A stretch of DNA of 35,908 bases, taken from Deltaproteobacteria bacterium. GTDB lineage: Bacteria > Desulfobacterota > Deferrimicrobia > Deferrimicrobiales > Deferrimicrobiaceae. Shown here piece after piece: positions 11,032-27,000 of this stretch. Each line of letters opens with the position of its first letter. Position 1 is the first letter of the stretch. The translations under genes and the position numbers were made by a program. The notes beneath the pieces were generated by a model, which saw only the letters and a list, made by a program, of their open reading frames with translations, was not told the DNA's origin and ran no database searches. The stretch covers positions 23,394 through 59,301 of the forward strand of contig JBBISC010000001.1 of NCBI GenBank assembly GCA_037441465.1. The letters run 5' to 3'.

Positions 11032-12596
11032 CGCCGCCCTCCGGTCGAAGGCGCCGACGAATCCGGGACGATCCGCATCGCGCGGACGGGTGCGTAGCTT
11101 TCGTTCGGCGTGAGCACGAATCCCTCGAGCCTGCGGTCCCGGACCAGCAGGTTCCGGCCCGCCCACAACGGGAACACCGGAAGGTCTCGCGCGAGGATCC
11201 GCTGCACCTGCCGGTACATTCCCCGGCGTCTTTCCCTGGACGGTTCGCTCCTCGCCGCCTCCGTCAGGCGGTCGACTTCGGCGTCGGAGTACCCCCCGCG
11301 GTTCGCGCCTTCGGGGGGAGCGCTCCGGGAATGGAACGCGTGGTGAAAGATGTCGGGGTCCGCGATCCCGACCCATGTGAGGCTGTAGATCTGGAAGTTT
11401 CCTTTCTTGATGTCCGAGAAGAAGGTTCCCCACTCAAGTGATTGTATTTCAATGGAAATACCTACCTGGCGGAGCTGCTCCTGGATGACGGTCGCTACGC
11501 GCCGGCGCACCTCGTTCTGCGACGTTTTGTACGTCATTCGAAGACGGGGGAGAGGACCGTCGCCGTCGGGATCCGGGAACCCGGCCTCGTCGAGGAGATG
11601 CCGCGCCCGTGCCGGATCGAACCGCACCGCGGGAAGATCCGGATCGTGCGCCCACGATCCCGGGGGGAGGATCGATTCCACGGGATCGGCGCGCCCCTTC
11701 CAGATTGTCCGGATGATCGTCTCCCGGTCGATCGCGAGGGCGATCGCGCGGCGCACCCTTGCGTCGGACAGTGCCCGGTCGCGGAGATTGAAACCGAGAT
11801 ACGTGACGTTTCCCCCCGCGCCTTCCTCGACGACGAGCCGTCCGGCCCGCTTCGCCGCCGGGAGCAGGTCGGGGTCGACCCCGTTCAGGGCGAAGTTGAC
11901 GCTCCCCATCTTCAGTTCGAGGAAGCGGACGTTGCTGTCGGGGATGAACTTGACCGTCACCGCCCGGATCGCGGGCGGACCGCCGTAATACCCGTCGTAT
12001 GCCGAAAGAACCGCCTCGCCGTCGGGGGAGAGGTCGTCGATCCTGTAGGGGCCCGCCCCCACGGGCGGCGCGTAGCCGCGCGCCGGGCTTCCGGCGGGGA
12101 CGATGCCCCGCACCATCGTGGAGAGGAACGGGGCGAACGGTTCGGAGAGGCGGAAGACGACGGTCAGCGGATCAGGGGCATCGATCGAGGCAAGGTGTCG
12201 GTACAGCCCCCGGTGCGGGGACCGGTTCGCGGCATCGAGGATCCACGTGAAGGTGTACCGCACGTCGGCAGAGGTGAGCGGCCGCCCGTCGTGGAACCGC
12301 AACCCCGGCCGGAGGTGGAATATATACGTCAAGGGATCGGGCGACTCCCACCGGTGCGCGAGGTCGGGGAGGGGCTCGCCGGCCGCGTCACGGCCGACGA
12401 GGGAGGCGTGCGTCATCTGGAGGATCTGCTCGCCGTAGGCGTCGGTCGCCACGCGCGGGTCGACGTTCACGGGCGCCCCCGGCAGCGCGATCACCATCCG
12501 CCCCTCGTCGATCGGCAGCTTCTGCGCGCAGGAGGCGAGTGTCAGGAATGCGAGGGACGCGGGGAAAAGGATGGATAACCGGAAGATACCGAACAT
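11028..12596 (-). CDS. ABC transporter substrate-binding lipoprotein, family 5 (DppA/OppA-like)
   Basis: Lipobox LASC; PDLAHRWE...YIFHLRPGLRFHDGRPLTSADVRYT; VRRAIALAIDR. Confidence 0.92.
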   Translation of the reverse strand: MFGIFRLSILFPASLAFLTLASCAQKLPIDEGRMVIALPGAPVNVDPRVATDAYGEQILQMTHASLVGRDAAGEPLPDLAHRWESPDPLTYIFHLRPGLRFHDGRPLTSADVRYTFTWILDAANRSPHRGLYRHLASIDAPDPLTVVFRLSEPFAPFLSTMVRGIVPAGSPARGYAPPVGAGPYRIDDLSPDGEAVLSAYDGYYGGPPAIRAVTVKFIPDSNVRFLELKMGSVNFALNGVDPDLLPAAKRAGRLVVEEGAGGNVTYLGFNLRDRALSDARVRRAIALAIDRETIIRTIWKGRADPVESILPPGSWAHDPDLPAVRFDPARARHLLDEAGFPDPDGDGPLPRLRMTYKTSQNEVRRRVATVIQEQLRQVGISIEIQSLEWGTFFSDIKKGNFQIYSLTWVGIADPDIFHHAFHSRSAPPEGANRGGYSDAEVDRLTEAARSEPSRERRRGMYRQVQRILARDLPVFPLWAGRNLLVRDRRLEGFVLTPNESYAPVRAMRIVPDSSAPSTGGRR

Positions 12597-12602
12597 CTGT
12601 TC

Positions 12603-12611
12603 ATCGTACCA
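12603..12611 (-). promoter_or_regulatory. Putative extended -10 promoter, leaderless arrangement
   Basis: TGG-TACGAT lies 6 nt before ATG 12596, with no SD. Confidence 0.45.
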
Positions 12612-12656
12612 TCGCGAACCCGAAGGACGAATGGACCGTTCCACTGCCTGATTTCG

Positions 12657-12665
12657 TGGTATTTT
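12657..12665 (+). promoter_or_regulatory. Putative extended -10 promoter, leaderless arrangement
   Basis: TGG-TATTTT lies 6 nt before ATG 12672, with no SD. Confidence 0.4.
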
Positions 12666-12671
12666 TTGAAA

Positions 12672-13586
12672 ATGGCGACCGACAAGGTGGATCCCGGATG
12701 TTCGACTGCTGCGGGCGAGTCACCCCGTGCCTACCGTCACGGACTCGCCCGTCCGTTCTCCTACAAGATCGGCTATTCCCTCGGGAAGTGGCTTCCGAGA
12801 GGGGCTCTGTTCCTCCTCGCGGACCTCCTTGCCGACGCAACGCACCGGACGAATGCGGAACCGGCCAGAAATCTCCGGGCGAACCTGCGATCGGCCTTCC
12901 CACGATGGTCCGAGCGCGAAGTCGAAGAACTCTCGAAGAGGATTTTCCGGAACTTCGCCCGCAACCTGGTGGATTACGGACGATTCCATACGATCACCGA
13001 CGAGGCGCTGGACCGCCTGATACCCTCCGTTCAGCACCTCCACTTGCTCGAAGAGTCCTTCGCGAAGGGGAGGGGAGTCATCCTCGTGACCGGGCACATC
13101 GGGAACTGGGAACTGGGCGCCCTGTTCTTCGGTCGGCACGGCTTCAAGATCAACGTCGTCACGATTCCCGAAGGGAGCGAGCGGATCGATTCGATCCGCG
13201 GGGCGTATCGTACGCGCCAGAACATCCGCACGATTGTCGTCGACGGGTCGCCGTTTTCCTCTCTCGAGATCGTGGCGGCGCTCCGCCGGGGAGAGATCGT
13301 CGCCATGCTCGTGGATCGGTGGGAGAGGACCGACGGGATCCCGGCGAAATTCTTCGGCGAGGATCGTCGTTTCCCCCGCGGCCCGTTCGTGCTGAGCCGG
13401 GCGACGGACGCCCCAATCATCCCCGCGTTCATCGTCCGGGATGGGAACATATACCGGGGCGTGGTCGATCCCCCTGTTTCCATGGATGAGCCGGAGGATG
13501 AACCCGGGGTCCGACGGGTGAGCGAGTCTCTCGAACGGGTGATCCGGACGTACCCGGACCAATGGTATAATTTCGCACCTCGATGA
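12672..13586 (+). CDS. LpxL/HtrB-like lysophospholipid acyltransferase family protein
   Basis: GRGVILVTGHIGNWE, VAMLVDR, FFG...FPRGP..L, YPDQWYNF. Confidence 0.88.
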   Translation: MATDKVDPGCSTAAGESPRAYRHGLARPFSYKIGYSLGKWLPRGALFLLADLLADATHRTNAEPARNLRANLRSAFPRWSEREVEELSKRIFRNFARNLVDYGRFHTITDEALDRLIPSVQHLHLLEESFAKGRGVILVTGHIGNWELGALFFGRHGFKINVVTIPEGSERIDSIRGAYRTRQNIRTIVVDGSPFSSLEIVAALRRGEIVAMLVDRWERTDGIPAKFFGEDRRFPRGPFVLSRATDAPIIPAFIVRDGNIYRGVVDPPVSMDEPEDEPGVRRVSESLERVIRTYPDQWYNFAPR

Positions 13587-13692
13587 GGAGCATGGAGTCG
13601 GGCAAGGAGACGAACGGATGATGCCGTTGAATCGATCCGCACTATGCAATGCGGCTGGCGCGGAGGGGATGGGGAGGTACGCGCCCGGCGGG

Positions 13693-15195
13693 ATGAAGGT
13701 TCTACCCGTGCGGACGACCCTCCCGAAGGAAACGATTTCCCTGTGCCCGGAATGTCTCCGCACGATCTCCGCCGAAATTTTCGAAGAAAGCGGCAGGGTG
13801 ATGATGCGGAAAAGTTGCTCCGATCACGGCACGTTCACCGACGTCATCTTCTCGGATGTGGAGATGTACCGCCGCATGGGCCAATGGTATTTCGGGGATG
13901 GAGGGGGGTTCGAGAACCCCGCCGGCGGGATGGGAAAGGAGTGCCCGAGCCGGTGCGGTATCTGCGGCGCGCATTCGACGCATACCTCTCTCGCCAACAT
14001 CGACCTCACCGCGCGCTGCAATCTATCCTGTGCGGTCTGCTTTGCGGATGCCAACCGGAACCCGTACGAGCCTTCGTTCGAACAAGTGGTGGAGATGCTC
14101 CGCCGTCTTCGCGCCCAGCGCCCGGCGCCGGCGTTCGCCGTCCAGTTCACGGGAGGCGAGCCCACGCTGCACCCGCGATTTCTCGAAATCGTGGCCGAAG
14201 CGCGGGAAATGGGGTTTTCCCACCTCCAGGCGGCCACCAACGGCATCCGGTTCGCAGATCCGGAGTTCGCGCGAAGAGCGCGGGATGCCGGGCTCCATTA
14301 CCTGTACCTGCAGATGGACGGGACGACCGACGACGTCTTCCTGAAGATCCGCGGGAAGGCGTTGCTGGACACCAAGCTTCGGGTGATCGATTCCGCTAGG
14401 ACGGCCGGGCTGCGCATCATCTTCGTCCCCACCATCATCAAGGGCGTGAACGACCACCAGATCGGGGACCTCTGCCGCCTGGCCTTCGACCACCTCGACG
14501 TGCTGTCGGGGATTTCATTTCAGCCGATGACGTTCACCGGGAGGTACCCCGAATCGGACCGCGAGAAGCTTCGATTCACCCTTTCGGACCTTTCCCGTGA
14601 GTTCAGCCGCCAGACGGGACTCACCCACCCCCTGGAGGATTGGTTCCCCCTGAACGCCGCGGTTCCCCTGGTCCGATACGCGGGGGCCGTAACGGGGAAC
14701 GTGGCGGTGAACCACGCGTGCCATCCCCATTGCGGGTTGATGACCCTGTTTTTCATCGGCCGGAACGGCGAGGCCGTCCCGATCACGAGGTTCCTCGATC
14801 TCCGGGGACTTCTCGGAGAGGTGGAACGGCTGACGGGGAGCGCGAGGACGAGCCGCGTCAAGAGCTTGTCGAAGATCCGCGCCCTCCAGACTTTTTACCG
14901 GTTTTTCCGGGAGGACCGGGCTCCGGAGGGGTTGACGTTCCTCCGCTTTCTCAAGACCCTCGAGGGGTTCGCCGAAAAGAAGTACAGCTGGGACGGAAAG
15001 TACGAAGGGCACACATATAAATCCTTCTATGTCCTCGGGATGCATTTCATGGATGCCTACAATTACGATCTCGAGCGCGTGTCGCGCTGCGGCGTCCATT
15101 ATTCGGCCCCCGACGGAAGAATCTACCCGTTTTGCACCTACAACTCGGGTCCGATGCACCGTCATCGGGTAGAGAACGCGCTTGCGTCTTCTTGA
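13693..15195 (+). CDS. Radical SAM enzyme, tetraether synthase (Tes/GDGT-MAS, MJ0619) family homolog
   Basis: SLCPEC...KSCSDHG (rubredoxin-like), CPSRCGICGAH, LANIDLTARCNLSCAVCFA (radical SAM motif), QFTGGEPT, YLQMDG, VPTIIKGVND, FQPMTFTGR, HPHCG, MHFMDAYNYD..R..RCGVHY..PDG.IYPFCTYN. Start is uncertain (13618, 13669 or 13693). Confidence 0.85.
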   Translation: MKVLPVRTTLPKETISLCPECLRTISAEIFEESGRVMMRKSCSDHGTFTDVIFSDVEMYRRMGQWYFGDGGGFENPAGGMGKECPSRCGICGAHSTHTSLANIDLTARCNLSCAVCFADANRNPYEPSFEQVVEMLRRLRAQRPAPAFAVQFTGGEPTLHPRFLEIVAEAREMGFSHLQAATNGIRFADPEFARRARDAGLHYLYLQMDGTTDDVFLKIRGKALLDTKLRVIDSARTAGLRIIFVPTIIKGVNDHQIGDLCRLAFDHLDVLSGISFQPMTFTGRYPESDREKLRFTLSDLSREFSRQTGLTHPLEDWFPLNAAVPLVRYAGAVTGNVAVNHACHPHCGLMTLFFIGRNGEAVPITRFLDLRGLLGEVERLTGSARTSRVKSLSKIRALQTFYRFFREDRAPEGLTFLRFLKTLEGFAEKKYSWDGKYEGHTYKSFYVLGMHFMDAYNYDLERVSRCGVHYSAPDGRIYPFCTYNSGPMHRHRVENALASS

Positions 15196-15955
15196 TGTCG
15201 CGCGATCCGCATGGGTCTCCAATGGGACCCTCCGGTGGATCGTTTCCGCATTGATCCTTGCGCTGTCCCTTGCTCCCCGGCCGAACCTCGCGGAGGAAAC
15301 CGTCCCGGACGGAAAGACGATTTCGGGAGCGGAGAGGAACCGCTGGTTCGAGGTGGCCCGCGAGCGCCAGAAGGGGGTCACCGGATTGAGTGCGACGGTG
15401 GTGCAGCGGAAACGGGATCCGCTCCTGAAGAACGAGGCGGTCTCCAGGGGGAAGTTGTCGTTCCGGAAGCCGGACTCGCTTCGATGGGAGGTGGAGAGTC
15501 CCGAAAGAATGGTCGTGGTAATGGATGGCCGGACGGTAACCACGTATTATCCGACGAAAAAGGAGGCCGAGCGAAGGGACATGCAGGACGATTTCGCGTC
15601 CCGCGCCGCGCTGGGTTTTATCGAATCCGGAATCTCCGCCTCCCTCCCCGAACTGGAACGGCGATTCCACGTCGACCTTTTCCGGTCGGACGACCAGGTG
15701 GTCCTGCGGTTGATCCCGCGCTCGAAGATGCTGTCCCGCGTCATCGCATCGATCCGGATCCTCCAGGACCCGTTGGAGGGGCGACCGCGTCGAATCGTGG
15801 TCGAGGGCGCCCGCGGGGATCGGACCGAGACGACGTTTTCCGGGGTGACCCTCAATCCCGATTTTCCTCCGGGCACCTTTACGTTGCGACTGGGACCCGA
15901 GGTCCGGGTCACGGAAACGGGGGGACCGGGACGGAACCGGATAGATTCGCCATGA
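15182..15955 (+). CDS. LolA-like outer-membrane lipoprotein/lipid carrier
   Basis: Signal-like hydrophobic N-terminus; SATVVQRKRDPLL, SRGKLSFRKPDSLRWEVESPE, VMDG.TV..Y, ETTFS...LNP....F. Start is uncertain. Confidence 0.8.
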   Translation: MRLLDVARSAWVSNGTLRWIVSALILALSLAPRPNLAEETVPDGKTISGAERNRWFEVARERQKGVTGLSATVVQRKRDPLLKNEAVSRGKLSFRKPDSLRWEVESPERMVVVMDGRTVTTYYPTKKEAERRDMQDDFASRAALGFIESGISASLPELERRFHVDLFRSDDQVVLRLIPRSKMLSRVIASIRILQDPLEGRPRRIVVEGARGDRTETTFSGVTLNPDFPPGTFTLRLGPEVRVTETGGPGRNRIDSP

Positions 15956-16041: not shown

Positions 16042-17217
16042 ATGACCATGCCGAGCGCAATGCCTGCCGTCCTGCTTCTCGACGGCCTGTGGAACAAGAC
16101 GGTGGCGGCGGTCCGCTCCCTCGGGAAGCGCGGTTACCGTGTCTCGGTGGGGGAGAGGACCCGGTTCGCACCGGCCCTTTTTTCGAGATACTGCTCGCGT
16201 CGCTTCCTTCACCCGTCGCCGGCAACCTCTCCGGAAGCCTTTCTCGATGCGCTCGAAAAGGAGTTGCGCGTCGGCGCATACGACGTGGTCCTCGCGATGG
16301 AATTCGGTACCCAGGTCCTGATCGCCCGGAACCGTCCTCGCCTCGAGGGGATGGCGTGTTTCCCCTTCGCGTCCGCGGACCTCGCGATCCGGGTCCAGGA
16401 CAAGGGAGAGCTCTCTTCCTTCGCATCGGCCCACGGCGTCGAGTGTCCCGCCACGTTCCGTCCGGAAGGGACGGAGGACGTTCACGCGATGGCGGAGCGG
16501 GTCCCATACCCCCTCCTCATCAAGCCAAGGTTTTCCTCCGGAGGGCGGGGGATCGTGCGGGTGGAAACTCCTTCTCAACTTCGGAAAGAGTATCCGAACG
16601 TCCATGCCGTCCATCCGTCACCGATTCTTCAGGAGCGCCTTCCCCCGGGAGGGGCCGCGTTGGGGGTGGGCGTGCTGATGAACTATTCTTCCGAACCGCG
16701 CGCAACGTTCGCATACCGGCGCCTGCGGGAATACCCCGTCGGCGGGGGTCCCAGCACGTTTCGGGAGAGCGTGCGGGACGAAACGCTCTGCCGGACGACG
16801 GAGCGGCTCCTCTCGGCGCTCGGCTGGACCGGCGTCGCGATGGCGGAATTCAAGGTCGATCCGAGGGACGGCAGGCCGAAGCTTCTCGAGGTGAATCCCC
16901 GGTTCTGGGGATCGCTGAACCATGCGATCCTGTCGGGCGTCGATTTCCCGCACCTGTTGTGCCGGATGGCGATCGACGGGGATGTTCCTCCCCTGCGGGA
17001 GTACCGGGTAGGCGTTCGGAGTCGATCCCTGCTCCATGGGGACCTGATGCATTTCGTGAGAAACCCGAGACGGTTCCACCTCCACCCTCGCTTCTTCGAT
17101 TTTTCGATCCCGGATGATCTGCTGTCGGCGTCGGATCCATGGCCCGTGGTGGGGCGGGTGGCGACGCTGATCCCCGCGTGCTACGACCGGGAGTTGCGGA
17201 AAACGATGCTCGGATAG
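16042..17217 (+). CDS. ATP-grasp (carboxylate-amine ligase-like) protein
   Basis: QDKGEL, YPLLIKPRFSSGGRG, LQERLP, AMAEFKVDPRDGRPKLLEVNPRFWGS. Confidence 0.88.
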   Translation: MTMPSAMPAVLLLDGLWNKTVAAVRSLGKRGYRVSVGERTRFAPALFSRYCSRRFLHPSPATSPEAFLDALEKELRVGAYDVVLAMEFGTQVLIARNRPRLEGMACFPFASADLAIRVQDKGELSSFASAHGVECPATFRPEGTEDVHAMAERVPYPLLIKPRFSSGGRGIVRVETPSQLRKEYPNVHAVHPSPILQERLPPGGAALGVGVLMNYSSEPRATFAYRRLREYPVGGGPSTFRESVRDETLCRTTERLLSALGWTGVAMAEFKVDPRDGRPKLLEVNPRFWGSLNHAILSGVDFPHLLCRMAIDGDVPPLREYRVGVRSRSLLHGDLMHFVRNPRRFHLHPRFFDFSIPDDLLSASDPWPVVGRVATLIPACYDRELRKTMLG

Positions 17218-17254: not shown

Positions 17255-18088
17255 ATGACGACCTGCCGGAACGTGCTGACCGTTGACCTGGAAGACTGGT
17301 ATCACATCTGCGGTACGGGCCGGTCCGGGGACGTCTCTACGTGGGACGCGTACGAAAGCCGCGTGACCCGCAACACGGCGAAGGTCCTTTCCCTTCTACG
17401 GGAACACCAGGCCCGTGCCACGTTTTTCGTCCTCGGGTACATCGCCGAACGCGAACCGGGGTTGATCGCCGACATTTCGAAGCAGGGCCACGAGATCGCC
17501 ACCCACGGCCATCACCACCGAAGGGTGTTCGAGATGTCCGAGGAGGAGTTCGCGGAGGATGTCGATCGCTCCATGGACGCGATATCGTCCGCCGGCGGCG
17601 GCCGGGTGATCGGGTACCGCGCGCCGGAGTGGTCCATTCGTCCCCACACGATGTGGGCGCTCCGGGTCCTGCGGCGGAAGGGGATCCGGTACGACTCCAG
17701 CATGGTCCCCCTGACGCGGATGGGAGACCGCTCCTTCCCGACAAGGCCCTGCCGGATCCCGGCGGGGGACGGGGAGATCCTCGAGTTCCCCTTGACCACC
17801 GTCCGCTGCTTCGGGGAACATCTGCCCTTCACGGGCGGGTTGCCGTTGCGCCTCATGCCGTATTTCTACGTTCTTTCGAGGATCCGACGGATGAATGCGG
17901 AGGGGGACGCGGCGATGGTTTACGTCCACCCATGGGAATTCGACGCGGGGCAGCCGAGGATCGATCTTCCGTGGAGCCGGAGGATCATGCATTATTTCAA
18001 CCTGCGATCGACCCCGGGGAAGATTTCCGGACTGCTCGGCAACCTGCGATTCGCGCCCCTCCGCGAAGTGCTCGGGGTCGGGCAGTAA
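17255..18088 (+). CDS. Polysaccharide deacetylase (CE4) with DUF3473-like C-terminus
   Basis: LTVDLEDWYH, ATFFVLG, GHEIATHGHHH, GYRAPEWS, YDSS, YVHPWEFD. Confidence 0.9.
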   Translation: MTTCRNVLTVDLEDWYHICGTGRSGDVSTWDAYESRVTRNTAKVLSLLREHQARATFFVLGYIAEREPGLIADISKQGHEIATHGHHHRRVFEMSEEEFAEDVDRSMDAISSAGGGRVIGYRAPEWSIRPHTMWALRVLRRKGIRYDSSMVPLTRMGDRSFPTRPCRIPAGDGEILEFPLTTVRCFGEHLPFTGGLPLRLMPYFYVLSRIRRMNAEGDAAMVYVHPWEFDAGQPRIDLPWSRRIMHYFNLRSTPGKISGLLGNLRFAPLREVLGVGQ

Positions 18089-18356: not shown

Positions 18357-19463
18357 TTGATGTCCCCGATGCCCGAACCGCTGCGCGGGATCCGTCCGGG
18401 GATGGCGGGGAGGCGGATGCTGCCGGAACTGCTCTCCTTCGTGGTCCGGGAGGGGGTGCTGGAGAGATTTCGCGCCTTGTCCGTGTTCGGCTTCGATGAA
18501 CTTTGCAGGGCGCTCCACCGGGATCCCGGGTACGATATTTCCCGAGGCAACCGGCGGAGGATGCTCCGCCTCCTGATCGACCTTCTCGTGGAATGCGGTT
18601 GGCTGGAGCCGGCCCGATCCGGCGACCGGTGGTCCTGTCGACGGGACGGGACACCCGGACCGGGGGAGTATCGGGCGGACACCGGGGAGGGCGACGGCCA
18701 GGTCAAATTCTTTCGCCGTTGTCTGCGTTTCGTCCCCGGTTACCTGCGGGGAGAGGAATCGCCGATCGACTTCGATTCCGAGAACGTGCGCGTGTGGGAG
18801 GACTTCCTCGGATGCGACGAATTCCAGGCGTGCCGATCCATCCTGCTCGACCGGATGGCTTCGACCGCCGGCGCTTCCCCTTCCCTTCTGGACCTGTGCC
18901 ACGGCCCCGGATGGGGAATAGAGCGGGCGATGGAGCGCTGGCCGGAGGCCCGGATCACCGCGATCGATTTCACGGGCGCTTTCACGGGGAGTGCGAAGTG
19001 CCGGGCGGAGCAGGCGCGCGTGCGGAACGTCGCCCGTTGCCGGCCGTCCTCTCCCGTCGAATGGTTCGGCCCTTCCGACTGGAAAGGATTCGGCCACCCG
19101 CTGCCGTTTCCCGAGGGCGCCTTCGAATCCGTTCTTTTCGGTTGCGGGGACCCGTACATCCGGCCCGACGCGCGGGACGCGGTCTATGCCGATTTGCGCC
19201 GCGTCCTCGCGCCGGGGGGTACGCTGGGCATCCTGACCCGCGGGTACCCCGATCCGGAACACCGCCACGTCCCCTCGTACTGGCCCCGGATCACCACGCT
19301 CATCCATGATTTCACCGAGAGCGTGTGCGCGGGATGGCAAGGATTCCCGAACGTCGGAGAAAATCAGGACATGTTCCCGCGCCTCGGGTTCCGGGGCGCG
19401 TGGGACCCGGGGGGCGCCATGAGCATCCTGGACTCCGCGCTTTGGATCCTGAAAAAGGGGTGA
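18357..19463 (+). CDS. Class I SAM-dependent methyltransferase-like protein
   Basis: LLDLCHGPG (variant motif I), ITAIDFT, LPFPEGAFESV, LRRVLAPGGTL. The helical N-terminus resembles PKS C-methyltransferase domains. Confidence 0.75.
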   Translation: MMSPMPEPLRGIRPGMAGRRMLPELLSFVVREGVLERFRALSVFGFDELCRALHRDPGYDISRGNRRRMLRLLIDLLVECGWLEPARSGDRWSCRRDGTPGPGEYRADTGEGDGQVKFFRRCLRFVPGYLRGEESPIDFDSENVRVWEDFLGCDEFQACRSILLDRMASTAGASPSLLDLCHGPGWGIERAMERWPEARITAIDFTGAFTGSAKCRAEQARVRNVARCRPSSPVEWFGPSDWKGFGHPLPFPEGAFESVLFGCGDPYIRPDARDAVYADLRRVLAPGGTLGILTRGYPDPEHRHVPSYWPRITTLIHDFTESVCAGWQGFPNVGENQDMFPRLGFRGAWDPGGAMSILDSALWILKKG

Positions 19464-20130: not shown

Positions 20131-20139
20131 ACTATACCA
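20131..20139 (-). promoter_or_regulatory. Putative extended -10 promoter for the lipoprotein gene
   Basis: TGG-TATAGT overlaps the darB stop codon, about 70 nt upstream of ATG 20060. Confidence 0.4.
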
Positions 20140-21280
20140 CCGTCAGGAGCATGTAGGCCATGGAGAACCGGCCGCTTTCCGGGATCATGCAGAGGAGCCG
20201 TTCTCCCTTCCGAAGCCGGCCGGAGTGGAACAGCTCCTCGAGGAGGATGAAGATCGAGGCCGAGCCGGTGTTTCCCTTCGTCACCAGGTTGGAGAACCAT
20301 CGTCCCGGCGGGATCGGAAAACCGGTCTCTTCCATCCTTCGACGGAGCGGTTCCCGGAAAAAGTCCGAGGAGTAGTGAGGGAGAAACCAGTCCACGTCGG
20401 TCGGGACGATCCCATGCCGGGCGACCACGCGCGACAGGGCACGGTCGACGGCCGTCTTGATGATCTCCCGGTTCAGCAGGTTCACGTCCTGCTGGGTGAG
20501 AAATGCGTCCGACGAGACGGCATCCGGCAGGGAATCGAAGGAGCGCCACCCGGTCAGGCTCCCGTCCGCGTTTTTCACCGCCCCGGAGTACATGCAGGTT
20601 TCCAGTTCGTTGGCGTAGGAGAGAAGGTCGATCCAGTCGATCCGGAGGGCTTGCTTCTCCGCCGGCGGTGTCCCGGAGAGAAAGGCCGCACCCGCTCCGT
20701 CCGACAGCATCCAGCGGAGGAAATCGGCCTGGAAGGCCAGGATCGGCCGGGCCTCCAGCGCCGTTTCGCTCTCGGTCTGCGCATTCCGGAACATCCCGGC
20801 CCTCATGTACGTGGACGCCAGTTCGGAACCGGTCGCGACGGCGTTCCGGACAAGTCCCAGCGCCACGTTCATGGCGGCGTATTTCACCGCGCCGATTCCC
20901 GAGAGGCAGATTCCGGCCGTGGTGACGACTTCGCAGGGGGCGCTGGACAACTCGCCGTGCACCATCAACCCGTGGCCCGGAAGAAGCTGATCCGGGGAGG
21001 ACGTCCCGCAGGCGAGGCACTCGATATCCGCGGGTGTGAATCCCGCGTACGGTTTCAGGCGGCGTACCGCCTCGGCGGTGAGTTGGGCGTTCGTATGCGT
21101 GACGCGGCCGGTTGCAGGATCGATGGCGTAGTAGCGCTCCCGGATCCGGTTTTTCCGGAGGACGATGCTCCGGGTCCGGGACGGCGCCCCGCCGATCATC
21201 CCGAGAATGTTCTCCATGGACCGGTTGTCGACCGGCGCGTTCGGGAGAAACGCCGCCAGGTCGGTTATGTAAGCGTTCAT
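20132..21280 (-). CDS. darB: StlD/DarB-family beta-ketoacyl-ACP synthase III
   Basis: MNAYITDLAAFLPNAPV.N..ME.ILG.I, RYYAIDP, GICLSG (Cys), FLRWMLSDGAGA, FLPHYSS (His), GNTGSAS (Asn), PESGRFS. Confidence 0.85.
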   Translation of the reverse strand: MNAYITDLAAFLPNAPVDNRSMENILGMIGGAPSRTRSIVLRKNRIRERYYAIDPATGRVTHTNAQLTAEAVRRLKPYAGFTPADIECLACGTSSPDQLLPGHGLMVHGELSSAPCEVVTTAGICLSGIGAVKYAAMNVALGLVRNAVATGSELASTYMRAGMFRNAQTESETALEARPILAFQADFLRWMLSDGAGAAFLSGTPPAEKQALRIDWIDLLSYANELETCMYSGAVKNADGSLTGWRSFDSLPDAVSSDAFLTQQDVNLLNREIIKTAVDRALSRVVARHGIVPTDVDWFLPHYSSDFFREPLRRRMEETGFPIPPGRWFSNLVTKGNTGSASIFILLEELFHSGRLRKGERLLCMIPESGRFSMAYMLLTVV

Positions 21281-21293: not shown

Positions 21294-22589
21294 TCAGAGT
21301 CTGGCGTTGGCGTGGAATGCCTTCATCAACCCGGCATACCGTTCGTAGAACCGTTTTTCCTCCAGCCGGGTAGGAACGACCGCGTTCGTGAGCGTGTAGT
21401 AGTCGAGGTCATGGAGGACGATCCGGTCCGACCAGGCGGAGTGAAGGGGATGGCCGGGGAGGGGAGTGAGCACCGCGAGCAGGGGAAGGTCGATCTTCCG
21501 CCCGGTCACATACCGCTCGAGGGCGTCGAATCGTTCCTCGTCGTAGTCGGGGGAAACGATGAAGTCGCCCACGATGGAGACCCCCATCTCATGGAGGATC
21601 GCGATGGCTTCGTCGTTCACGGCCACGCTGCCGGATTTGTTCAGGGAGGCGAGGGCGTCGTCCGTGACCTCCTCGAAACCGATGATCACGGAACGGAGCC
21701 CCGCCTCTTTCCAGCGGCGCAGCAGTTCCGGGTGGCGGACCACGGTGTCGGATCGGACGTCGACCACGAAATTTTTCCGGATGCCGGCCGAGAGGATCCC
21801 CTCCGCCAGGCGATCCGCATGGCGCGGGTCGCCGAACGTGTTCGCGTCCACGAGACGGATTACCGGGATGTCGCCCAGCGCCCGGATGTCCGCGATCACC
21901 GTTTCGACGGCGTGGTTCAGGTACCGGCCGCCGGTGAGGGAGGAGATGCAGCAGAACGAGCATCGATACGGGCAACCGAACGCCGACGCAACGAAGCCGA
22001 TCCGGAAGCCGAGAGAGGAGAGGGTGTAGCTGTCCCGATACCGGGCGACGAGGTCGTATCGGGGCGGCCCGGTTTCCGCGAGGTCGACGGGGCCGTATTC
22101 CCTGGGGACGAAGGCGAGTCTGCCGCCGGGGTTCGTCCGGGCGACGCCGGGAAGATCGCCGATATCCCGGTCCGCCTCGATCGCCGCCGCCAGTTCGGCG
22201 AAACTGTCCTTGCCGAGCCCCATGACCACGTAATCGATGCAGGACCGGTTGAAGAAGTCCGGATCGCAACTGGCGTGGATCCCTCCCACGACCACGGTGG
22301 CGCCGCGGCTTTCCTTGACCTCCTCCGCGAGACGCACCACCGTGTTCGCTTCGCACGTGACCGCGGTAAAGCCGACCAGGTCCGGGCCGAAGGCCGACAG
22401 GGCGTCGTGGAACCCCTCTGGCTCCGCCTTCAGGTCGAGGATCAGCAGATCGTGATCCTCCAGGTTGCCCGCCAGCACTTCCAGCGCGAGCGGTTCCCCC
22501 CGGAAGATCTGCCGGATGGAGTCGATCCCGTAGCGCTCTTCGGGAATGCTTCGGCCGCAATTCGGCGGATTGACCAGGAGGATCTTCAT
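21294..22589 (-). CDS. B12-binding domain radical SAM protein
   Basis: MKILLVNP, EPLALEVLAG, DLVGFT, VVGGIHAS, FGCPYRCSFC, VDANTF, IIGFE, LTPLPG. Confidence 0.9.
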   Translation of the reverse strand: MKILLVNPPNCGRSIPEERYGIDSIRQIFRGEPLALEVLAGNLEDHDLLILDLKAEPEGFHDALSAFGPDLVGFTAVTCEANTVVRLAEEVKESRGATVVVGGIHASCDPDFFNRSCIDYVVMGLGKDSFAELAAAIEADRDIGDLPGVARTNPGGRLAFVPREYGPVDLAETGPPRYDLVARYRDSYTLSSLGFRIGFVASAFGCPYRCSFCCISSLTGGRYLNHAVETVIADIRALGDIPVIRLVDANTFGDPRHADRLAEGILSAGIRKNFVVDVRSDTVVRHPELLRRWKEAGLRSVIIGFEEVTDDALASLNKSGSVAVNDEAIAILHEMGVSIVGDFIVSPDYDEERFDALERYVTGRKIDLPLLAVLTPLPGHPLHSAWSDRIVLHDLDYYTLTNAVVPTRLEEKRFYERYAGLMKAFHANARL

Positions 22590-22613: not shown

Positions 22614-23801
22614 TCAACTTCCCGCCGGCTGGGTGTCCGGGGATCGGTCCGCCCGCAGGGATCGAACCGAGATATAGGTGAGCAACGCTCCTGCGAAGCC
22701 GAGGATCGGGCCGATGGCGAGGGCTCCCAGCAGCCACTCCCACAGGCGGAGGTGGATCTCGTCGATCAGAACGTGCCGATCGAATGCGAACAGGAAACGG
22801 CCGTACCGGATGAAATGACCGGCTTCGACGCAGGCGAGGGGCACGAAGGGAGCGACGCAGACGTTGCTGGCGGCAACTCCGGCAAGCTTGTTCAGATGAA
22901 GGCGGTGGCTGACGTAGACGATCGCAGCGATCCCGAACGGGATGATCGGGAGCGCCCCGATAAAGATCCCGACCCAGACGGCAGCCGCAAGTTCCCCCGG
23001 TCCGGAGTGCTCTCTGCTCAATCGCCGGAAAAAGCGGATCGGATGAAGAAACTCCGCCGTCTTCGGGCTCGCGTCCTCACTGGACGATTGCCGGAGGTGC
23101 GGCCAGGGCAGGAGGGAACGGATCAGCAGCCATGCGTGGAGGCAGGAGAGCCGCAGGTTGTCGAGGAACGGATGGAAATGCGAAATCCGCTCGGCGGCGG
23201 GCGGGTAATGGACCGGAACCGGAACGAAGAGGAGCGGCAAGCCGGCCCATACCGCCCGAACCAGCACCTCCACTTCGAACGGGAATCCCGTCGAGAGGAA
23301 TCGGCCGGCGAGGAGGAAATCCACCGGATACAGCCGATAGCCGCTCTGGCTGTCGGGAAGCGCGTGGCCGCATTCCAGCCGCACCCAGAAATTCGAAAAA
23401 TCGCGGCCGAACACGCTCGAACGAGGCGCATTCGCGTCTTCCATCCGGCGGGCCCCGACCGCGACGGCCGGCCAGGAAGCGGAGGCGGTCTCCAGGAGGC
23501 GGCGGGCGTCCGCCGGGTCGTGCTGTCCGTCGGCATCGATGGTCACGATCGCATCGTACCCCGACCGTTTCGCCAGCTTCGCCGCGGCGAGAATGGCGGC
23601 CCCTTTCCCCCGGTTCGACCGGAACCGGTGGCGGGAGACCGGAAGGTCGACCACCGTGTCGAGCCCCCCGTCCGTGCTCCCGTCATCTACGACGAGGACG
23701 GGGAACCCTTCGGCCAGGCCGTTAAGCGTGACGGCGCGCAGGGACGCGGCGTGGTTGTAGACCGGGATGACGAGCAAGGTCTTGGGTAACGGCGTTCCCA
23801 T
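22614..23801 (-). CDS. GT2 glycosyltransferase fused to a DUF2062-like membrane domain
   Basis: VIPVYNH, VVDDGSTD, NRGKGAA, TIDADGQH, DSQSGYRLYP, ISHFHPFLDNLRLS, then hydrophobic GIFIGALP...LNKLA...SNV. Alternative start at 23816. Confidence 0.88.
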   Translation of the reverse strand: MGTPLPKTLLVIPVYNHAASLRAVTLNGLAEGFPVLVVDDGSTDGGLDTVVDLPVSRHRFRSNRGKGAAILAAAKLAKRSGYDAIVTIDADGQHDPADARRLLETASASWPAVAVGARRMEDANAPRSSVFGRDFSNFWVRLECGHALPDSQSGYRLYPVDFLLAGRFLSTGFPFEVEVLVRAVWAGLPLLFVPVPVHYPPAAERISHFHPFLDNLRLSCLHAWLLIRSLLPWPHLRQSSSEDASPKTAEFLHPIRFFRRLSREHSGPGELAAAVWVGIFIGALPIIPFGIAAIVYVSHRLHLNKLAGVAASNVCVAPFVPLACVEAGHFIRYGRFLFAFDRHVLIDEIHLRLWEWLLGALAIGPILGFAGALLTYISVRSLRADRSPDTQPAGS

Positions 23802-23815
23802 GGAGCAATTGTACA

Positions 23816-25345: not shown

Positions 25346-25605
25346 GTCCGATGGTTCTGGATGAAATCGGCCAGCGTCCGAAGGGATCGGAGCACCTTGC
25401 GGCTGGTCTCCTGGGAGCCGATCCGGACGTGGTATTTCCGCTGGACGGCCACGACGATCTCGACCGCATCGAGGGAGTCGAAGCCGAAGGGAGACTCGGG
25501 CCCGATCAGGGGGGCATCCGGCGGCGGATCGGCGGGCGGCGATTCCGTGCACCGGCAGGTTTCGACGATCATCTCGAACAGCTCGCGTTCAAGTGCGGAT
25601 AGCAA
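25342..25605 (-). CDS. Acyl carrier protein (second copy)
   Basis: TTG start after a GGAGGAG SD; FGFDSLDAVEIVV phosphopantetheine Ser motif. Confidence 0.85.
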   Translation of the reverse strand: MLSALERELFEMIVETCRCTESPPADPPPDAPLIGPESPFGFDSLDAVEIVVAVQRKYHVRIGSQETSRKVLRSLRTLADFIQNHRT

Positions 25606-26987: not shown

Positions 26988-27000
26988 CTCCGTCCCCGTG

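What the first reader, a model, noticed from the sequence alone, without database searches (positions are those of the whole stretch)
13693..15195. Bacterial homolog of archaeal tetraether synthase with all four metal-site motifs
Seen: CxxC...CxxH, CxxxCxxCxxH, the radical SAM CxxxCxxC, and C-terminal HCG...MHFMDAYN...RCxxHY...PFCTYN. Known, from my recollection of MJ0619/GDGT-MAS: the same order of rubredoxin site, auxiliary cluster, radical SAM cluster and C-terminal cluster with a Met ligand and a nearby Tyr. The M and HY here are spaced as I recall in that enzyme. Its immediate neighbours are an acyltransferase and a lipid carrier. Inference: it acts on acyl lipids and is a candidate for bacterial membrane-spanning lipid synthesis. 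Caveats: functions of bacterial Tes homologs are largely unproven, and no ether-forming enzyme is visible in the window.
Basis: partly seen in the sequence, partly recalled or inferred. Interest (0 to 1): 0.82.

Follow-up and report, generated by a model that had tools for sequence, protein, structure and literature searches.

The report
Bacterial tetraether-synthase homolog in lipid island
An uncultured sediment or peat bacterium carries an intact copy of the enzyme archaea use to weld two lipid tails together, inside a conserved lipid-building gene cluster; what it makes in bacteria is still untested.

Summary
It aligns end to end with the solved M. jannaschii enzyme GDGT-MAS (E 2e-115) and keeps every named metal ligand at identical spacing, plus Met439 and Tyr459.

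In a careful tree it sits inside the Tes family. All named bacterial sequences form one clade next to Thermoplasmata-type archaeal Tes.

Bacterial Tes homologs are already published and their function is unproven, so the gene itself is not new.

The new part is context. The acyltransferase-Tes-LolA-ATP-grasp-deacetylase order recurs in MAGs titled Deferrimicrobium, NC10 and Nitrospirota (29 of 30 and 28 of 30 loci for the two flanking genes). It is in none of 46-47 acidobacterial-type loci. It travels with B12 radical SAM enzymes, ketosynthases, FabG and a CrtD-like oxidoreductase.

Here it opens a ~35.7 kb accessory island found in 15 of 28 genus genomes. That island also holds a genus-specific flexirubin/dialkylresorcinol module.

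No GGGP synthase was found, so archaeal substrates are unlikely. My best reading is tail-to-tail C-C coupling of a non-isoprenoid lipid made by this cluster. No assay supports this yet.

The parts
12531..12665 (.). Left border of the accessory island. Genus genomes without Tes keep the solute-binding gene up to about 12530 and nothing after it.
   Evidence: In G002 and G005 the sequence matching own C1:35923 (window 12530) is followed about 100 bp later by sequence matching own C1:71652-76146.
12666..13586 (+). LpxL/PatA-type acyltransferase (Lip_A_acyltrans), the conserved upstream partner of Tes
   Evidence: Pfam PF03279 at 131 bits. Best NCBIfam hit is PIM acyltransferase at 122 bits, below its 209 cut-off. 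Adjacent upstream of Tes in 29 of 30 non-acidobacterial loci with enough flank.
13604..13609 (+). AAGGAG Shine-Dalgarno-like hexamer 8 nt before ATG 13618
   Evidence: Read directly from the sequence.
13618..15195 (+). Tes-family radical SAM protein, 525 aa (the finding)
   Evidence: NF045702 at 506.3 bits, cut-off 450. 7TOL E 2e-115. Foldseek top hit 7TOM, TM 0.67. Tree placement.
13744..13827 (+). Rubredoxin-like Fe site C18, C21, C42, H45 (Zn_ribbon_HMPTM domain)
13942..13974 (+). N-terminal auxiliary [4Fe-4S] motif C84, C88, C91, H94
14017..14040 (+). Radical SAM cluster motif C109-x3-C113-x2-C116
14731..15135 (+). C-terminal cluster region: C347, Met450 (aligns with Met439), C466, Tyr470 (aligns with Tyr459), C481
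   Evidence: The Cys ligand assignment is inferred from invariance.
15182..15955 (+). LolA-family carrier with a hydrophobic N-terminal segment. Its start overlaps the Tes stop.
   Evidence: PF03548 at 60 bits. TIGR00547 at 69 bits and LolA2_flexi at 60 bits, both below cut-off. Adjacent downstream of Tes in 28 of 30 loci.
16042..17217 (+). ATP-grasp ligase, conserved cluster member
   Evidence: Within 7 kb downstream of Tes in 17 of 17 non-acidobacterial loci with enough flank.
17255..18088 (+). Polysaccharide deacetylase with DUF3473, conserved cluster member
   Evidence: PF01522 + PF11959. TIGR03006 at 265.6 bits, cut-off 276.2. Present in 16 of 16 loci with enough flank.
18357..19463 (+). 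SAM-dependent methyltransferase
   Evidence: A 50%-identical homolog lies in the NC10 cluster (L105).
20132..21280 (-). DarB-type ketosynthase. Part of the genus-specific flexirubin/dialkylresorcinol module, not of the conserved cluster.
   Evidence: NF005293 at 553 bits, cut-off 450. Found in 3 of 7 genus loci with enough flank. No hit in the NC10 and Nitrospirota regions searched.
21294..22589 (-). B12-binding radical SAM protein 1
   Evidence: PF02310 + PF04055. Best NCBIfam hit is HpnR at 166 bits, far below 650.
22614..23816 (-). GT2 glycosyltransferase fused to DUF2062
   Evidence: 30% homologs lie in the NC10 and Nitrospirota clusters.
23816..25552 (-). Polysaccharide deacetylase fused to a methyltransferase
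25647..27840 (-). ABC-2 exporter: permease 25647-26987 and ATPase 27001-27840 (variable module)
   Evidence: Absent between the deacetylase-methyltransferase gene and MipA in L019.
27800..29273 (-). DarH acyltransferase (27800-28729) and DarG (28845-29273), variable module
   Evidence: NF053550 at 415 bits, cut-off 300. NF053536 at 141 bits, cut-off 70.
29290..30186 (-). MipA-family outer-membrane protein
   Evidence: PF06629 at 134 bits.
30168..32473 (-). Ketosynthase pair: CLF-like 30168-31304 and FabF-like 31301-32473
   Evidence: Homologs at 25-41% identity follow the deacetylase in NC10 and Nitrospirota clusters.
32470..32748 (-). Acyl carrier protein candidate, 92 aa, with a GLDSLD motif
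   Evidence: Motif scan of small ORFs in a script. Not scanned against a family library.
32724..33770 (-). Second Lip_A_acyltrans acyltransferase
   Evidence: PF03279 at 48 bits. Weak NCBIfam hits only.
33671..35908 (-). B12-binding radical SAM protein 2 (start uncertain), followed by a TIGR04072-like B12 radical SAM gene that seems split over two frames and runs off the window

Best explanation
The ORF encodes a working Tes-family radical SAM enzyme. [quoted passage not shown]

Catalytic steps, inferred by homology with M. jannaschii GDGT-MAS and not shown here:
1. The CX3CX2C cluster cleaves SAM reductively.
2. The 5'-deoxyadenosyl radical removes a hydrogen from a chain terminus.
3. That radical is parked on a sulfide of the C-terminal [4Fe-4S] cluster once Met450 swings off.
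4. A second SAM activates the second chain, which attacks the cluster-bound carbon. Two SAM are used per bond.
5. The rubredoxin-like iron and the N-terminal cluster relay electrons.

The substrate is not archaeol. It is most likely a non-isoprenoid chain built and decorated by the co-inherited cluster:
- Chain building: ketosynthase pair, ACP, FabG and a CrtD-like oxidoreductase.
- Decoration: B12 radical SAM enzymes acting as methylases or cyclases.
- Loading: LpxL/PatA-type and PlsC-type acyltransferases and a GT2, which attach the chains to a polar backbone.
- Head-group tailoring: the deacetylase and the ATP-grasp ligase.
- Delivery: the LolA-like periplasmic carrier, which takes the coupled bipolar or macrocyclic lipid toward the outer membrane.

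Shown here: family membership, ligand conservation, tree position, conserved gene order, and presence or absence of the island as one block. Inferred: every chemical step, the substrate and the destination.
For: Family:
- NF045702 scores 506.3 bits against a cut-off of 450; TrsS scores 329.5 against 490.
- 7TOL matches at E 2e-115 over the full length.
- All named ligands, Met439 and Tyr459 are kept at the same spacing. They are invariant among 11 relatives.
- The SAM-loop residues Gln268 and Arg275 align with Q277 and R284; Ser271 aligns with T280.
- The model's top fold hits are 7TOM and 7TOL (TM 0.67 and 0.66 over about 500 columns). The next hits are generic radical SAM cores at TM 0.28-0.33.

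Tree (41 rows, LG+C20+F+G4, ultrafast bootstrap / SH-aLRT):
- Tes family against the TrsS-type outgroup: 100/99.
- All named bacterial rows sit in one 23-row clade: 100/100.
- That clade is sister to Methanomassiliicoccales/Thermoplasmata Tes: 100/99.
- The query's clade: 100/100.

Context (loci with enough flank):
- Non-acidobacterial loci: acyltransferase 29 of 30, LolA 28 of 30, ATP-grasp 17 of 17, deacetylase 16 of 16.
- Acidobacterial-type loci: 0 of 46, 0 of 47, 0 of 38 and 0 of 37.
- The NC10 and Nitrospirota clusters continue co-linearly with ketosynthases, a methyltransferase (50% identity to the window's), a B12 radical SAM gene, FabG, a CrtD-like oxidoreductase and GT2.
- An own-island B12 radical SAM protein is 73% identical to the one that precedes acyltransferase-Tes in NC10.

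Inheritance as a unit:
- 15 of 28 genus genomes hold the cassette, 11 keep only the flanking gene and 2 have no match.
- G002 and G005 join the flanks directly, which marks out about 35.7 kb.

Substrate:
- No PcrB/GGGP synthase was found in the 94.5% complete genome.
- Lloyd et al. saw density in E. coli-made GDGT-MAS that they interpreted as two phosphatidic acids (passage). The fold can therefore hold acyl lipids.

Weak hint of use:
- Contigs from RNA libraries of two studies, 90-99% alike, lie on all six plus-strand genes. One bridges the Tes/LolA junction.
Against: - No bacterial Tes homolog has been assayed. A 2025 survey and a 2026 review still call the function unconfirmed (passages).
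- Sahonero-Canavesi et al. 2022 found no Tes homolog in the non-acidobacterial diabolic and iso-diabolic acid producers they screened. They found one in only 3 of 14 iso-diabolic-acid-producing Acidobacteria. A different enzyme, Mss, does the coupling in Thermotoga (passages).
- Gene order shows co-inheritance, not a shared substrate.
- The closest relatives with any lipid evidence, the acidobacterial clade, lack this cluster altogether. The cluster is therefore not needed for whatever Tes does there.
- The lipid pockets could not be inspected. The model has mean pLDDT 67.9 and falls below 50 around the cluster loops and the C-terminus.
- The RNA-library contigs may contain DNA. No silent control stretch was laid.
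- The roles of the ATP-grasp ligase and the deacetylase are guesses.
- The domain of origin of 8 unnamed rows in the 23-row "bacterial" clade is unknown, and MJ0619 itself is not in the tree.
Confidence: 0.55

Rival explanations
1. It is the iso-diabolic acid / brGDGT synthase proposed for bacterial Tes homologs. It would couple the omega carbons of ordinary membrane iso-branched acyl or alkyl glycerolipids, and the neighbouring cluster would be irrelevant to its substrate.
For: - Zeng et al. 2022 proposed this, noting that iso-fatty-acid tails and phytanyl tails end alike (passages).
- Ca. Solibacter usitatus, found through its Tes homolog, makes brGDGTs at up to 66% of its major lipids (abstract and passages).
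- Solibacteraceae and Korobacteraceae sequences group with the query's clade at 97/96 support.
- A protein with two BcrAD_BadFG domains plus DUF2229 is encoded elsewhere in the genome. That is the part of the Ger ether-forming enzyme conserved in all alkyl ether producers (passage).
- Two runs of one peat-metagenome study hold more than half of the stretch's sampled words.
Against: - Unlike the acidobacterial clade, this clade is locked to its own ketosynthase/ACP/acyltransferase/LolA cluster.
- The Ger-like protein is present in 27 of 28 genus genomes whether or not they carry Tes. No HGD-D domain was found in it at E 0.001 or better.
- Tes homologs were missing from most iso-diabolic acid producers tested.
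- Mss was not searched for here.
Confidence: 0.22
2. It works only within one molecule, as a macrocyclase like the macrocyclic-archaeol activity of GDGT-MAS. Or it performs another radical reaction on the cluster's product, so no membrane-spanning lipid results.
For: - GDGT-MAS makes both macrocyclic archaeol and GDGT (abstract and passages).
- The cluster resembles pigment and specialised-lipid clusters (aryl-polyene, flexirubin or ladderane type) more than bulk-membrane pathways.
Against: Nothing here distinguishes intra- from intermolecular coupling. Conservation of Met450 and the C-terminal cluster argues for the two-step coupling chemistry rather than, say, methylation.
Confidence: 0.12
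3. It couples the alkyl tails of the dialkylresorcinol or flexirubin-type pigment encoded next to it.
For: DarB, DarH and DarG pass their NCBIfam cut-offs 5-14 kb downstream of Tes. They lie in the same accessory island.
Against: - DarB is present in only 3 of 7 genus loci with enough flank.
- In L019 the deacetylase-methyltransferase gene abuts MipA, with no ABC-2/DarH/DarG between them.
- No Dar homolog was found within about 30 kb downstream of Tes in the NC10 (G044) and Nitrospirota (G045) genomes.
Confidence: 0.04
4. It is a true GDGT synthase acting on archaeal-type isoprenoid diethers made by the bacterium. Alternatively, it is the pterin C-methylase first proposed for MJ0619.
For: It passes the Tes equivalog model. 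Some database names for homologs still read "7,8-dihydro-6-hydroxymethylpterin dimethyltransferase".
Against: - No PcrB/GGGP synthase was found in the 94.5% complete genome, while the controls matched in the archaeal genomes.
- Lloyd et al. could not corroborate the pterin methylase activity, and they found a narrow hydrophobic tunnel at the active site (passages).
Confidence: 0.03

Closest known systems
GDGT-MAS / Tes of Methanocaldococcus jannaschii (MJ0619; PDB 7TOL, 7TOM)
   Same: - Full-length four-domain alignment (E 2e-115).
- Identical ligand pattern and spacing for the rubredoxin-like iron, the N-terminal cluster and the radical SAM cluster, plus the Met and Tyr of the C-terminal domain.
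- It is the top fold match.
- It belongs to the same NCBIfam equivalog.
   Different: - The host is a bacterium in which no GGGP synthase was found.
- The gene sits in a ketosynthase/ACP/acyltransferase/LolA cluster.
- Asn108 is Asp and Ser271 is Thr, from my reading.
- The window's protein has a 25-residue N-terminal extension.
- Its activity is untested.
Acidobacterial Tes homologs (Ca. Koribacter versatilis and Ca. Solibacter usitatus type)
   Same: They are the nearest named clade, at 50-54% identity, and group with the query's clade at 97/96. They are also bacterial and also unassayed, but are tied by correlation to brGDGT or iso-diabolic acid producers.
   Different: None of 46-47 such loci has the acyltransferase or LolA neighbours. 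None of 46 has a B12 radical SAM homolog nearby. Their flanks look like housekeeping genes and are conserved in only 9-13 of 47 loci.
Mss, the membrane-spanning lipid synthase of Thermotoga and Thermoanaerobacter
   Same: It is a radical SAM enzyme that couples two fatty-acid tails under anoxic conditions. It is the only bacterial tail-coupling enzyme shown by heterologous expression (passages).
   Different: It is described as only remotely related to Tes. I could not compare sequences because no Mss reference was available to the tools.
Archaeal GDGT-tailoring radical SAM set (Gms, Gmm, GrsA/B) and the reported bacterial gms-tes clusters
   Same: The NC10 and Nitrospirota versions of this cluster place a radical SAM/SPASM protein and several B12 radical SAM proteins next to Tes. 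That echoes the Tes + Gms (SPASM) + Gmm/Grs (B12) sets. Garcia et al. 2024 state that bacterial gms genes cluster with tes or mss in Acidobacteria and Planctomycetes (passage).
   Different: - No homology test against Gms, Gmm or Grs was possible, because no reference sequences were available.
- The window's genome has no homolog of the SPASM protein.
- Their supplementary figure was not visible to me.
Ladderane-type / aryl-polyene-type lipid clusters (TIGR04072 B12 radical SAM, FabF pair, phytoene-desaturase-like enzyme, ACP)
   Same: The island holds a TIGR04072-like protein (300 bits, cut-off 360), ketosynthase pairs, an ACP, FabG and a CrtD-like oxidoreductase. That is the gene set the 2026 review lists for the candidate ladderane cluster (passage).
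   Different: No Tes is described in those clusters in the passages I read. The TIGR04072 match is below its cut-off and seems split by a frame change.
Flexirubin / dialkylresorcinol clusters (DarB, DarG, DarH, LolA2)
   Same: DarB, DarG and DarH pass their cut-offs. The LolA gene has a sub-threshold match to LolA2_flexi.
   Different: This module is an add-on that varies even within the genus, and it is not linked to Tes elsewhere.

Membership tests
Tes / GDGT-MAS family (NCBIfam NF045702) | Whole-protein score above the curated equivalog cut-off | tested here: met
   506.3 bits against 450. The nearest other model, TrsS, scores 329.5 against 490.
Tes / GDGT-MAS family (NCBIfam NF045702) | Rubredoxin-like site CX2C-X20-CX2H | tested here: met
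   C18, C21, C42 and H45 align with C9, C12, C33 and H36.
Tes / GDGT-MAS family (NCBIfam NF045702) | N-terminal auxiliary [4Fe-4S] cluster with three Cys and one His | tested here: met
   C84, C88, C91 and H94 align with C73, C77, C80 and the following His.
Tes / GDGT-MAS family (NCBIfam NF045702) | Radical SAM CX3CX2C cluster and SAM-binding loop | tested here: met
   C109, C113 and C116. PF04055 at 93 bits. Q277 and R284 align with Gln268 and Arg275; T280 aligns with Ser271.
Tes / GDGT-MAS family (NCBIfam NF045702) | C-terminal [4Fe-4S] cluster with three Cys and the labile Met439, plus conserved Tyr459 | tested here: met
   M450 and Y470 align with Met439 and Tyr459 and are 20 residues apart in both proteins. 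C347, C466 and C481 are invariant. Which Cys are the ligands is my inference.
Tes / GDGT-MAS family (NCBIfam NF045702) | Four-domain fold of 7TOM | tested here: met
   Foldseek E 2e-36, TM 0.67 over 503 columns. The model is only moderate: pLDDT 67.9, pTM 0.78.
Tes / GDGT-MAS family (NCBIfam NF045702) | Branches inside the clade of named Tes proteins, apart from TrsS | tested here: met
   One search gives 100/99 for Tes against the outgroup. Two of three outgroup rows pass the TrsS cut-off, and 7 of 7 ingroup rows tested pass the Tes cut-off.
Tes / GDGT-MAS family (NCBIfam NF045702) | Two hydrophobic lipid-binding pockets leading to the 5'-dA site | not testable with these tools
   No model coordinates are returned. 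pLDDT is below 50 in residues 335-345, 383-392, 427-441 and 467-500.
Tes / GDGT-MAS family (NCBIfam NF045702) | Catalyses C(sp3)-C(sp3) coupling of two lipid tails | not testable with these tools
   Needs an anaerobic assay or heterologous expression.
GDGT (isoprenoid tetraether) synthase in the strict sense | The host makes archaeol-type diether substrate (GGGP synthase present) | tested here: not met
   PF01884 has 0 matches in the own genome (94.5% complete). The control matched in the four archaeal control genomes and in three bacterial ones. Only this one pathway gene was searched.
brGDGT pathway (coupling enzyme plus ether-forming enzyme) | Ger-type glycerol ester reductase: two BcrAD_BadFG domains + DUF2229, followed by HGD-D segments | tested here: inconclusive
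   One frame on contig C55 has two BcrAD_BadFG stretches and DUF2229, but no HGD-D at E 0.001 or better. It is present in 27 of 28 genus genomes regardless of Tes.
brGDGT pathway (coupling enzyme plus ether-forming enzyme) | Mss, ElbD or Agps homologs | not tested
   No reference sequence or diagnostic family model was at hand.
TrsS radical SAM (seleno)protein (NF045646) | Score above cut-off over the whole model | tested here: not met
   329.5 bits against 490. The best stretch covers only residues 13-315.
Flexirubin / dialkylresorcinol cluster, with Tes as a member | Tes-Dar linkage conserved wherever this Tes clade occurs | tested here: not met
   DarB is in 3 of 7 genus loci with enough flank. 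No Dar homolog was found in the two extended NC10 and Nitrospirota regions.

The most novel reading that the evidence does not exclude
This Tes clade marks an undescribed, horizontally mobile gene cluster of about 25-35 kb, shared by MAGs titled Deferrimicrobium (MBNT15), NC10 and Nitrospirota. The cluster would make a new class of bacterial bipolar or macrocyclic lipid in four steps:
1. A dedicated ketosynthase/ACP line builds the chain.
2. Up to four B12 radical SAM enzymes methylate or cyclise it.
3. Tes welds two tails together.
4. A LolA-like carrier takes the product to the outer membrane.

Such organisms would be an unrecognised anaerobic source of brGDGT-like or orphan membrane-spanning lipids in peat, sediment and subsurface settings. 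They would also offer a compact operon for proving what bacterial Tes does.
Probability: 0.3. Interest if true: 0.85.

Novelty: new variant of a known kind. Interest (0 to 1): 0.58.

Why it matters
Branched tetraether lipids (brGDGTs) underpin widely used temperature and pH reconstructions, yet their producers and enzymes remain unsettled. Bacterial Tes homologs have been candidates since 2022 without a functional test.

This locus does not settle the question. It does show that one well-supported bacterial Tes clade is inherited together with a fixed set of lipid-building, lipid-decorating and lipid-export genes in MAGs titled as three phyla.

That gives three things:
- A defined gene set to express.
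- A natural plus/minus comparison within one genus, since 15 of 28 genomes carry the cassette.
- A reason to look for tail-coupled lipids outside Acidobacteria.

If the cluster's product is a fatty-acid-type lipid, it would add to the few ketoacyl lipids thought to be modified by radical SAM enzymes (review passage).

Tried and rejected
- **Labelling tree rows.** I looked up 10 representatives with the listing of cluster members. Only one cluster gave an organism name (Phycisphaerae). I obtained named archaeal sequences from a profile search instead.

- **Placing MJ0619 in the tree.** Its sequence is not a stored protein, so I left it out. Three unnamed representatives scored 342-347 bits against 7TOL, lower than the window's protein at 389 bits. 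That does not locate MJ0619.

- **Tes as part of the Dar/flexirubin module.** Rejected for lack of conservation. The 80 loci carry at most 10 kb of flank, so DarH and DarG (12.6-14 kb downstream) could not have been seen in them. Only DarB and the two extended regions bear on this point.

- **Conserved partners in acidobacterial loci.** ORFs of L049 recur in only 9-13 of the 47 other loci. They are housekeeping types: PPK2, a methyltransferase, an M1 peptidase, a release factor and Lnt.

- **The NC10 radical SAM/SPASM protein in the own genome.** No hit at E 1e-10 or better with at least 50% coverage.

- **Expression.**
  - Only contigs from RNA libraries were available. They cannot show starts, strands or levels, and they may include DNA. 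No silent control stretch was laid.
  - Bins without cover mean nothing.
  - Runs with small word shares that I did not lay (X8-X14, X18, X20) are not used for habitat.

- **Island base composition.** The island is 64.6% G+C, against 65.6% for the genome and 67.1% for the rest of its contig. It is lower than all 32 windows of 35 kb. This is too slight to argue transfer on its own.

- **Lipid channels.** Not assessed: no coordinates are returned and confidence is low near the clusters.

- **Complex prediction.** Not used; no binding claim is made.

- **Supplementary files.** The bacterial Tes trees and cluster figures of Zeng 2022, Lloyd 2022 (sequence similarity network) and Garcia 2024 (Fig. 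S15) may already show part of this context.


Full report
**1. The observation**

The window holds a 525-codon ORF at 13618-15195 on the plus strand. ATG 13618 has an AAGGAG 8 nt upstream. The 11 closest database homologs, at 84-92% identity, are all 525 aa.

I worked with the 500-residue version, P0001.
- C18-x2-C21-x20-C42-x2-H45.
- C84-x3-C88-x2-C91-x2-H94.
- C109-x3-C113-x2-C116.
- HPHC347G, GM450HFMDAYN, RC466GVHY470 and PFC481TYN.

**2. Family membership**

- Pfam finds Radical_SAM and the N-terminal Zn_ribbon_HMPTM domain.
- NCBIfam's equivalog model "tetraether lipid synthase Tes" (NF045702) scores 506.3 bits against a cut-off of 450. The next family, TrsS, scores 329.5 against 490, and its best stretch covers only the first ~315 residues.
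- A search of the solved structures gives GDGT-MAS of M. jannaschii (7TOL/7TOM) at E 2e-115, query 5-495 on chain 16-502. The next hit is at E 1.4e-9.

I read that alignment against the residue numbers in passages of Lloyd et al. 2022 (PMC9433317); the chain carries a 20-residue tag. The window's residues fall on C9/C12/C33/H36, on C73/C77/C80 plus His, on the radical SAM cysteines, on Met439 and on Tyr459. The spacing is the same throughout.

The loop residues Gln268 and Arg275 are kept. Ser271 is Thr and Asn108 is Asp.

All ligand positions are invariant in 11 relatives at 58-84% identity.

An AlphaFold2 model built on that alignment is moderate: pLDDT 67.9, pTM 0.78, and weak around the cluster loops. 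Its best fold matches are 7TOM and 7TOL (E 2e-36, TM 0.67 over 503 columns). Everything else is a generic radical SAM core at TM 0.28-0.33.

**3. Tree**

I collected 150 representatives from the 50%-identity library, named archaeal and bacterial proteins from a profile search, and Tes ORFs from 80 named genome loci.

- A FastTree of 130 rows used the query, 22 of the 80 loci, and the 107 of 150 representatives that are 430-700 aa long.
- A quick IQ-TREE of 64 rows gave the same picture.
- The careful tree used 41 rows that I chose:
  - the query;
  - 11 of the 80 loci;
  - 11 named archaeal and 2 named bacterial proteins;
  - 13 unnamed representatives;
  - 3 outgroup rows.
- It was run under LG+C20+F+G4. 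Supports are ultrafast bootstrap / SH-aLRT:

| Split | Support |
|---|---|
| Tes family against the outgroup | 100/99 |
| 23-row clade holding every named bacterial row | 100/100 |
| That clade sister to Methanomassiliicoccales/Thermoplasmata Tes | 100/99 |
| Acidobacteriota plus the query's clade | 97/96 |
| Query's clade (Deferrimicrobiota, NC10, Nitrospirota, one Thermodesulfobacteriota and one "Deltaproteobacteria" MAG) | 100/100 |

Two of the three outgroup rows pass the TrsS cut-off and the third is just below it. Seven of seven ingroup rows tested pass the Tes cut-off.

Caveats: the domain of origin of eight unnamed rows in the 23-row clade is unknown, and MJ0619 could not be included.

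**4. What is already known**

- Zeng et al. 2022 reported 456 bacterial Tes homologs and proposed a role in brGDGT synthesis (passages).
- Lloyd et al. noted bacterial homologs in their similarity network (passage).
- A 2025 Black Sea survey found them in 281 bacterial MAGs and states the activity is unconfirmed (passages).
- A 2026 review says only that they were detected bioinformatically (passages).
- Sahonero-Canavesi et al. 2022 found none in the non-acidobacterial diabolic and iso-diabolic acid producers they screened. They found one in only 3 of 14 iso-diabolic-acid-producing Acidobacteria. They showed that a different enzyme, Mss, does the coupling in Thermotoga (passages).
- Ca. Solibacter usitatus, picked because of its Tes homolog, makes abundant brGDGTs (abstract and passages).
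- One of the window's near relatives is already named "tetraether lipid synthase Tes" in NCBI (P0009).

So the gene as such is a further member of a known, unassayed group.

**5. Organism and distribution**

Titles of the closest loci name Candidatus Deferrimicrobium. A search listing ties that genus to candidate phylum MBNT15.

The window's genome is a 2.3 Mb, 176-contig assembly that is 94.5% complete, with one Tes copy.

- Tes passes the cut-off in 13 of 25 sampled genus genomes, counting G000. It passes in 0 of 16 genomes from other families of the class or phylum.
- A DNA search with window 11000-21300 over 28 genus genomes finds the cassette in 15. Eleven hold only the flanking solute-binding gene, and 2 have no match (64% and 57% complete).
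- In G002 (97% complete) and G005 (100% complete) the flank ends at the position matching window 12530. About 100 bp later comes sequence matching own contig C1:71652-76146.

The Tes cassette therefore opens an accessory block of about 35.7 kb (window 12531 to about 48258). The last ~12 kb lie beyond the window.

**6. Gene context in the window**

Plus-strand string:

| Coordinates | Product |
|---|---|
| 12666-13586 | Lip_A_acyltrans acyltransferase |
| 13618-15195 | Tes |
| 15182-15955 | LolA-family protein (14-nt overlap with Tes) |
| 16042-17217 | ATP-grasp ligase |
| 17255-18088 | Polysaccharide deacetylase with DUF3473 |
| 18357-19463 | Methyltransferase |

Minus-strand string facing it, in window order:
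- DarB-type ketosynthase (553 bits, cut-off 450).
- A B12 radical SAM protein.
- GT2-DUF2062.
- A deacetylase-methyltransferase fusion.
- An ABC-2 exporter.
- DarH (415 bits, cut-off 300).
- DarG (141 bits, cut-off 70).
- MipA.
- A ketosynthase pair.
- An ACP candidate.
- A second Lip_A acyltransferase.
- More B12 radical SAM genes.

Beyond the window the island continues with three more ketosynthases, a PlsC-type acyltransferase, a CrtD-like FAD oxidoreductase, FabG and a fourth B12 radical SAM gene.

**7. Which neighbours are conserved**

I ran tblastn with 21 window proteins against the 80 loci (E 1e-10 or better, at least half the query covered). Counts are for loci with enough flank.

| Neighbour | 32 non-acidobacterial loci | 48 acidobacterial-type loci |
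|---|---|---|
| Acyltransferase directly upstream | 29 of 30 | 0 of 46 |
| LolA directly downstream | 28 of 30 | 0 of 47 |
| ATP-grasp within 7 kb | 17 of 17 | 0 of 38 |
| Deacetylase within 9 kb | 16 of 16 | 0 of 37 |
| B12 radical SAM homolog nearby | 17 of 24 | 0 of 46 |

- In one NC10 genome and one Nitrospirota genome the cluster is co-linear. It runs on through a ketosynthase pair, a methyltransferase 50% identical to the window's, another ketosynthase, a B12 radical SAM gene, FabG, a CrtD-like oxidoreductase and GT2.
- Those versions also carry a radical SAM/SPASM protein after LolA. The window's genome lacks it.
- The island's last gene is 73% identical to the B12 radical SAM protein that precedes acyltransferase-Tes in NC10.
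- The Dar module, by contrast, is variable:
  - DarB is in 3 of 7 genus loci with enough flank.
  - L019 joins the deacetylase-methyltransferase gene directly to MipA.
  - No Dar homolog was found in the extended NC10 and Nitrospirota regions.

I found no paper that combines "tetraether synthase", "gene cluster" and "LolA" (0 papers). Garcia et al. 2024 do report bacterial gms-tes clusters in Acidobacteria and Planctomycetes (passage).

**8. Substrate clues**

- No PcrB/GGGP synthase was found in the genome, while the control matched in the archaeal control genomes.
- A protein with two BcrAD_BadFG domains plus DUF2229 is encoded on another contig. That is the part of Ger conserved in ether-lipid producers (passage). 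It is present in 27 of 28 genus genomes regardless of Tes, and no HGD-D segment was detected in it. It neither supports nor excludes ether formation.
- Lloyd et al. saw density interpreted as two E. coli phosphatidic acids in the enzyme's pockets (passage). Acyl lipids therefore fit the fold.

**9. Occurrence and possible expression**

Three runs hold at least half of the sampled words of 12666-19463. One is a subsurface metagenome (study P1) and two are peat metagenomes (study P2).

Contigs from RNA libraries of two studies (sediment, P8; soil, P9), 90-99% alike, lie on all six plus-strand genes. One bridges the Tes/LolA junction, one spans LolA to the deacetylase, and one spans acyltransferase to Tes.

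These libraries may contain DNA and no control stretch was laid. This is only a hint.

**10. Reading**

I put about 0.75 on Tes-type tail-to-tail coupling of a non-isoprenoid lipid. Within that:
- About 0.55 that the substrate is the product of the co-inherited cluster.
- About 0.22 that it is ordinary membrane lipid, as in the brGDGT proposal.

Smaller rivals are macrocyclisation only or other radical chemistry (0.12), dialkylresorcinol tails (0.04), and true GDGT synthesis or pterin methylation (0.03).

The gene is a new member of a known family. The conserved cluster around this clade looks like a new variant of the known Tes systems and gives a concrete set of genes to test.

Noticed in passing
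window 20132-21280, 25647-29273: A flexirubin/dialkylresorcinol-type module lies next to the Tes cassette: DarB, DarH and DarG all pass their NCBIfam cut-offs, with an ABC-2 exporter beside them. It is present in only some genus members.
   Followed up: partly
window 12531 to about 48258 (own contig C1:35924-71651): About 35.7 kb is missing as one block from two high-quality genomes of the same genus (G002, G005). The island's G+C (64.6%) is lower than all 32 windows of 35 kb in the genome.
   Followed up: yes
window 35119-36500 and L104:68-3622(-): A TIGR04072-like "lipid biosynthesis B12-binding/radical SAM" gene seems split over two reading frames. The N-terminal half lies in a 1185-codon frame and the radical SAM part in the 35119-35829 frame. 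This could be an assembly error or a pseudogene.
   Followed up: partly
window 13636-13709: One RNA-library contig of a close relative skips 72 nt (24 codons) inside the N-terminal extension of Tes. That extension is therefore variable and probably dispensable.
   Followed up: no
L101 (G000:C55) 2091-6527(+): A long frame carries two BcrAD_BadFG domains and DUF2229, the core architecture reported for the ether-forming enzyme Ger/PlsA. Homologs of about 1040-1060 codons occur in 27 of 28 genus genomes.
   Followed up: partly
L030 12226-13326(+); also L036, L038, L044: NC10 and Nitrospirota versions of the cluster carry a radical SAM/SPASM protein right after LolA (42-48% identical across the two phyla). 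It may be a counterpart of the archaeal bridging enzyme Gms. It is absent from the window's genome.
   Followed up: partly
L016, L034: MAGs titled "Actinomycetota" (L016) and "Bacteroidales" (L034) carry Tes cassettes 88% like the Deferrimicrobium type and about 72% like it (NC10-type). This points to mis-binning, mislabelling or recent transfer.
   Followed up: no
window 8597-9070(-): A small ORF has a weak PIN-domain match (E 3.9e-4, below the gathering score). It lies between a GH3 glycosidase gene and an oligopeptide ABC transporter operon (9267-12644).
   Followed up: no
G012, G024, G007: Some genus genomes hold extra, separate copies of the ATP-grasp/deacetylase part of the cassette on other contigs.
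   Followed up: no
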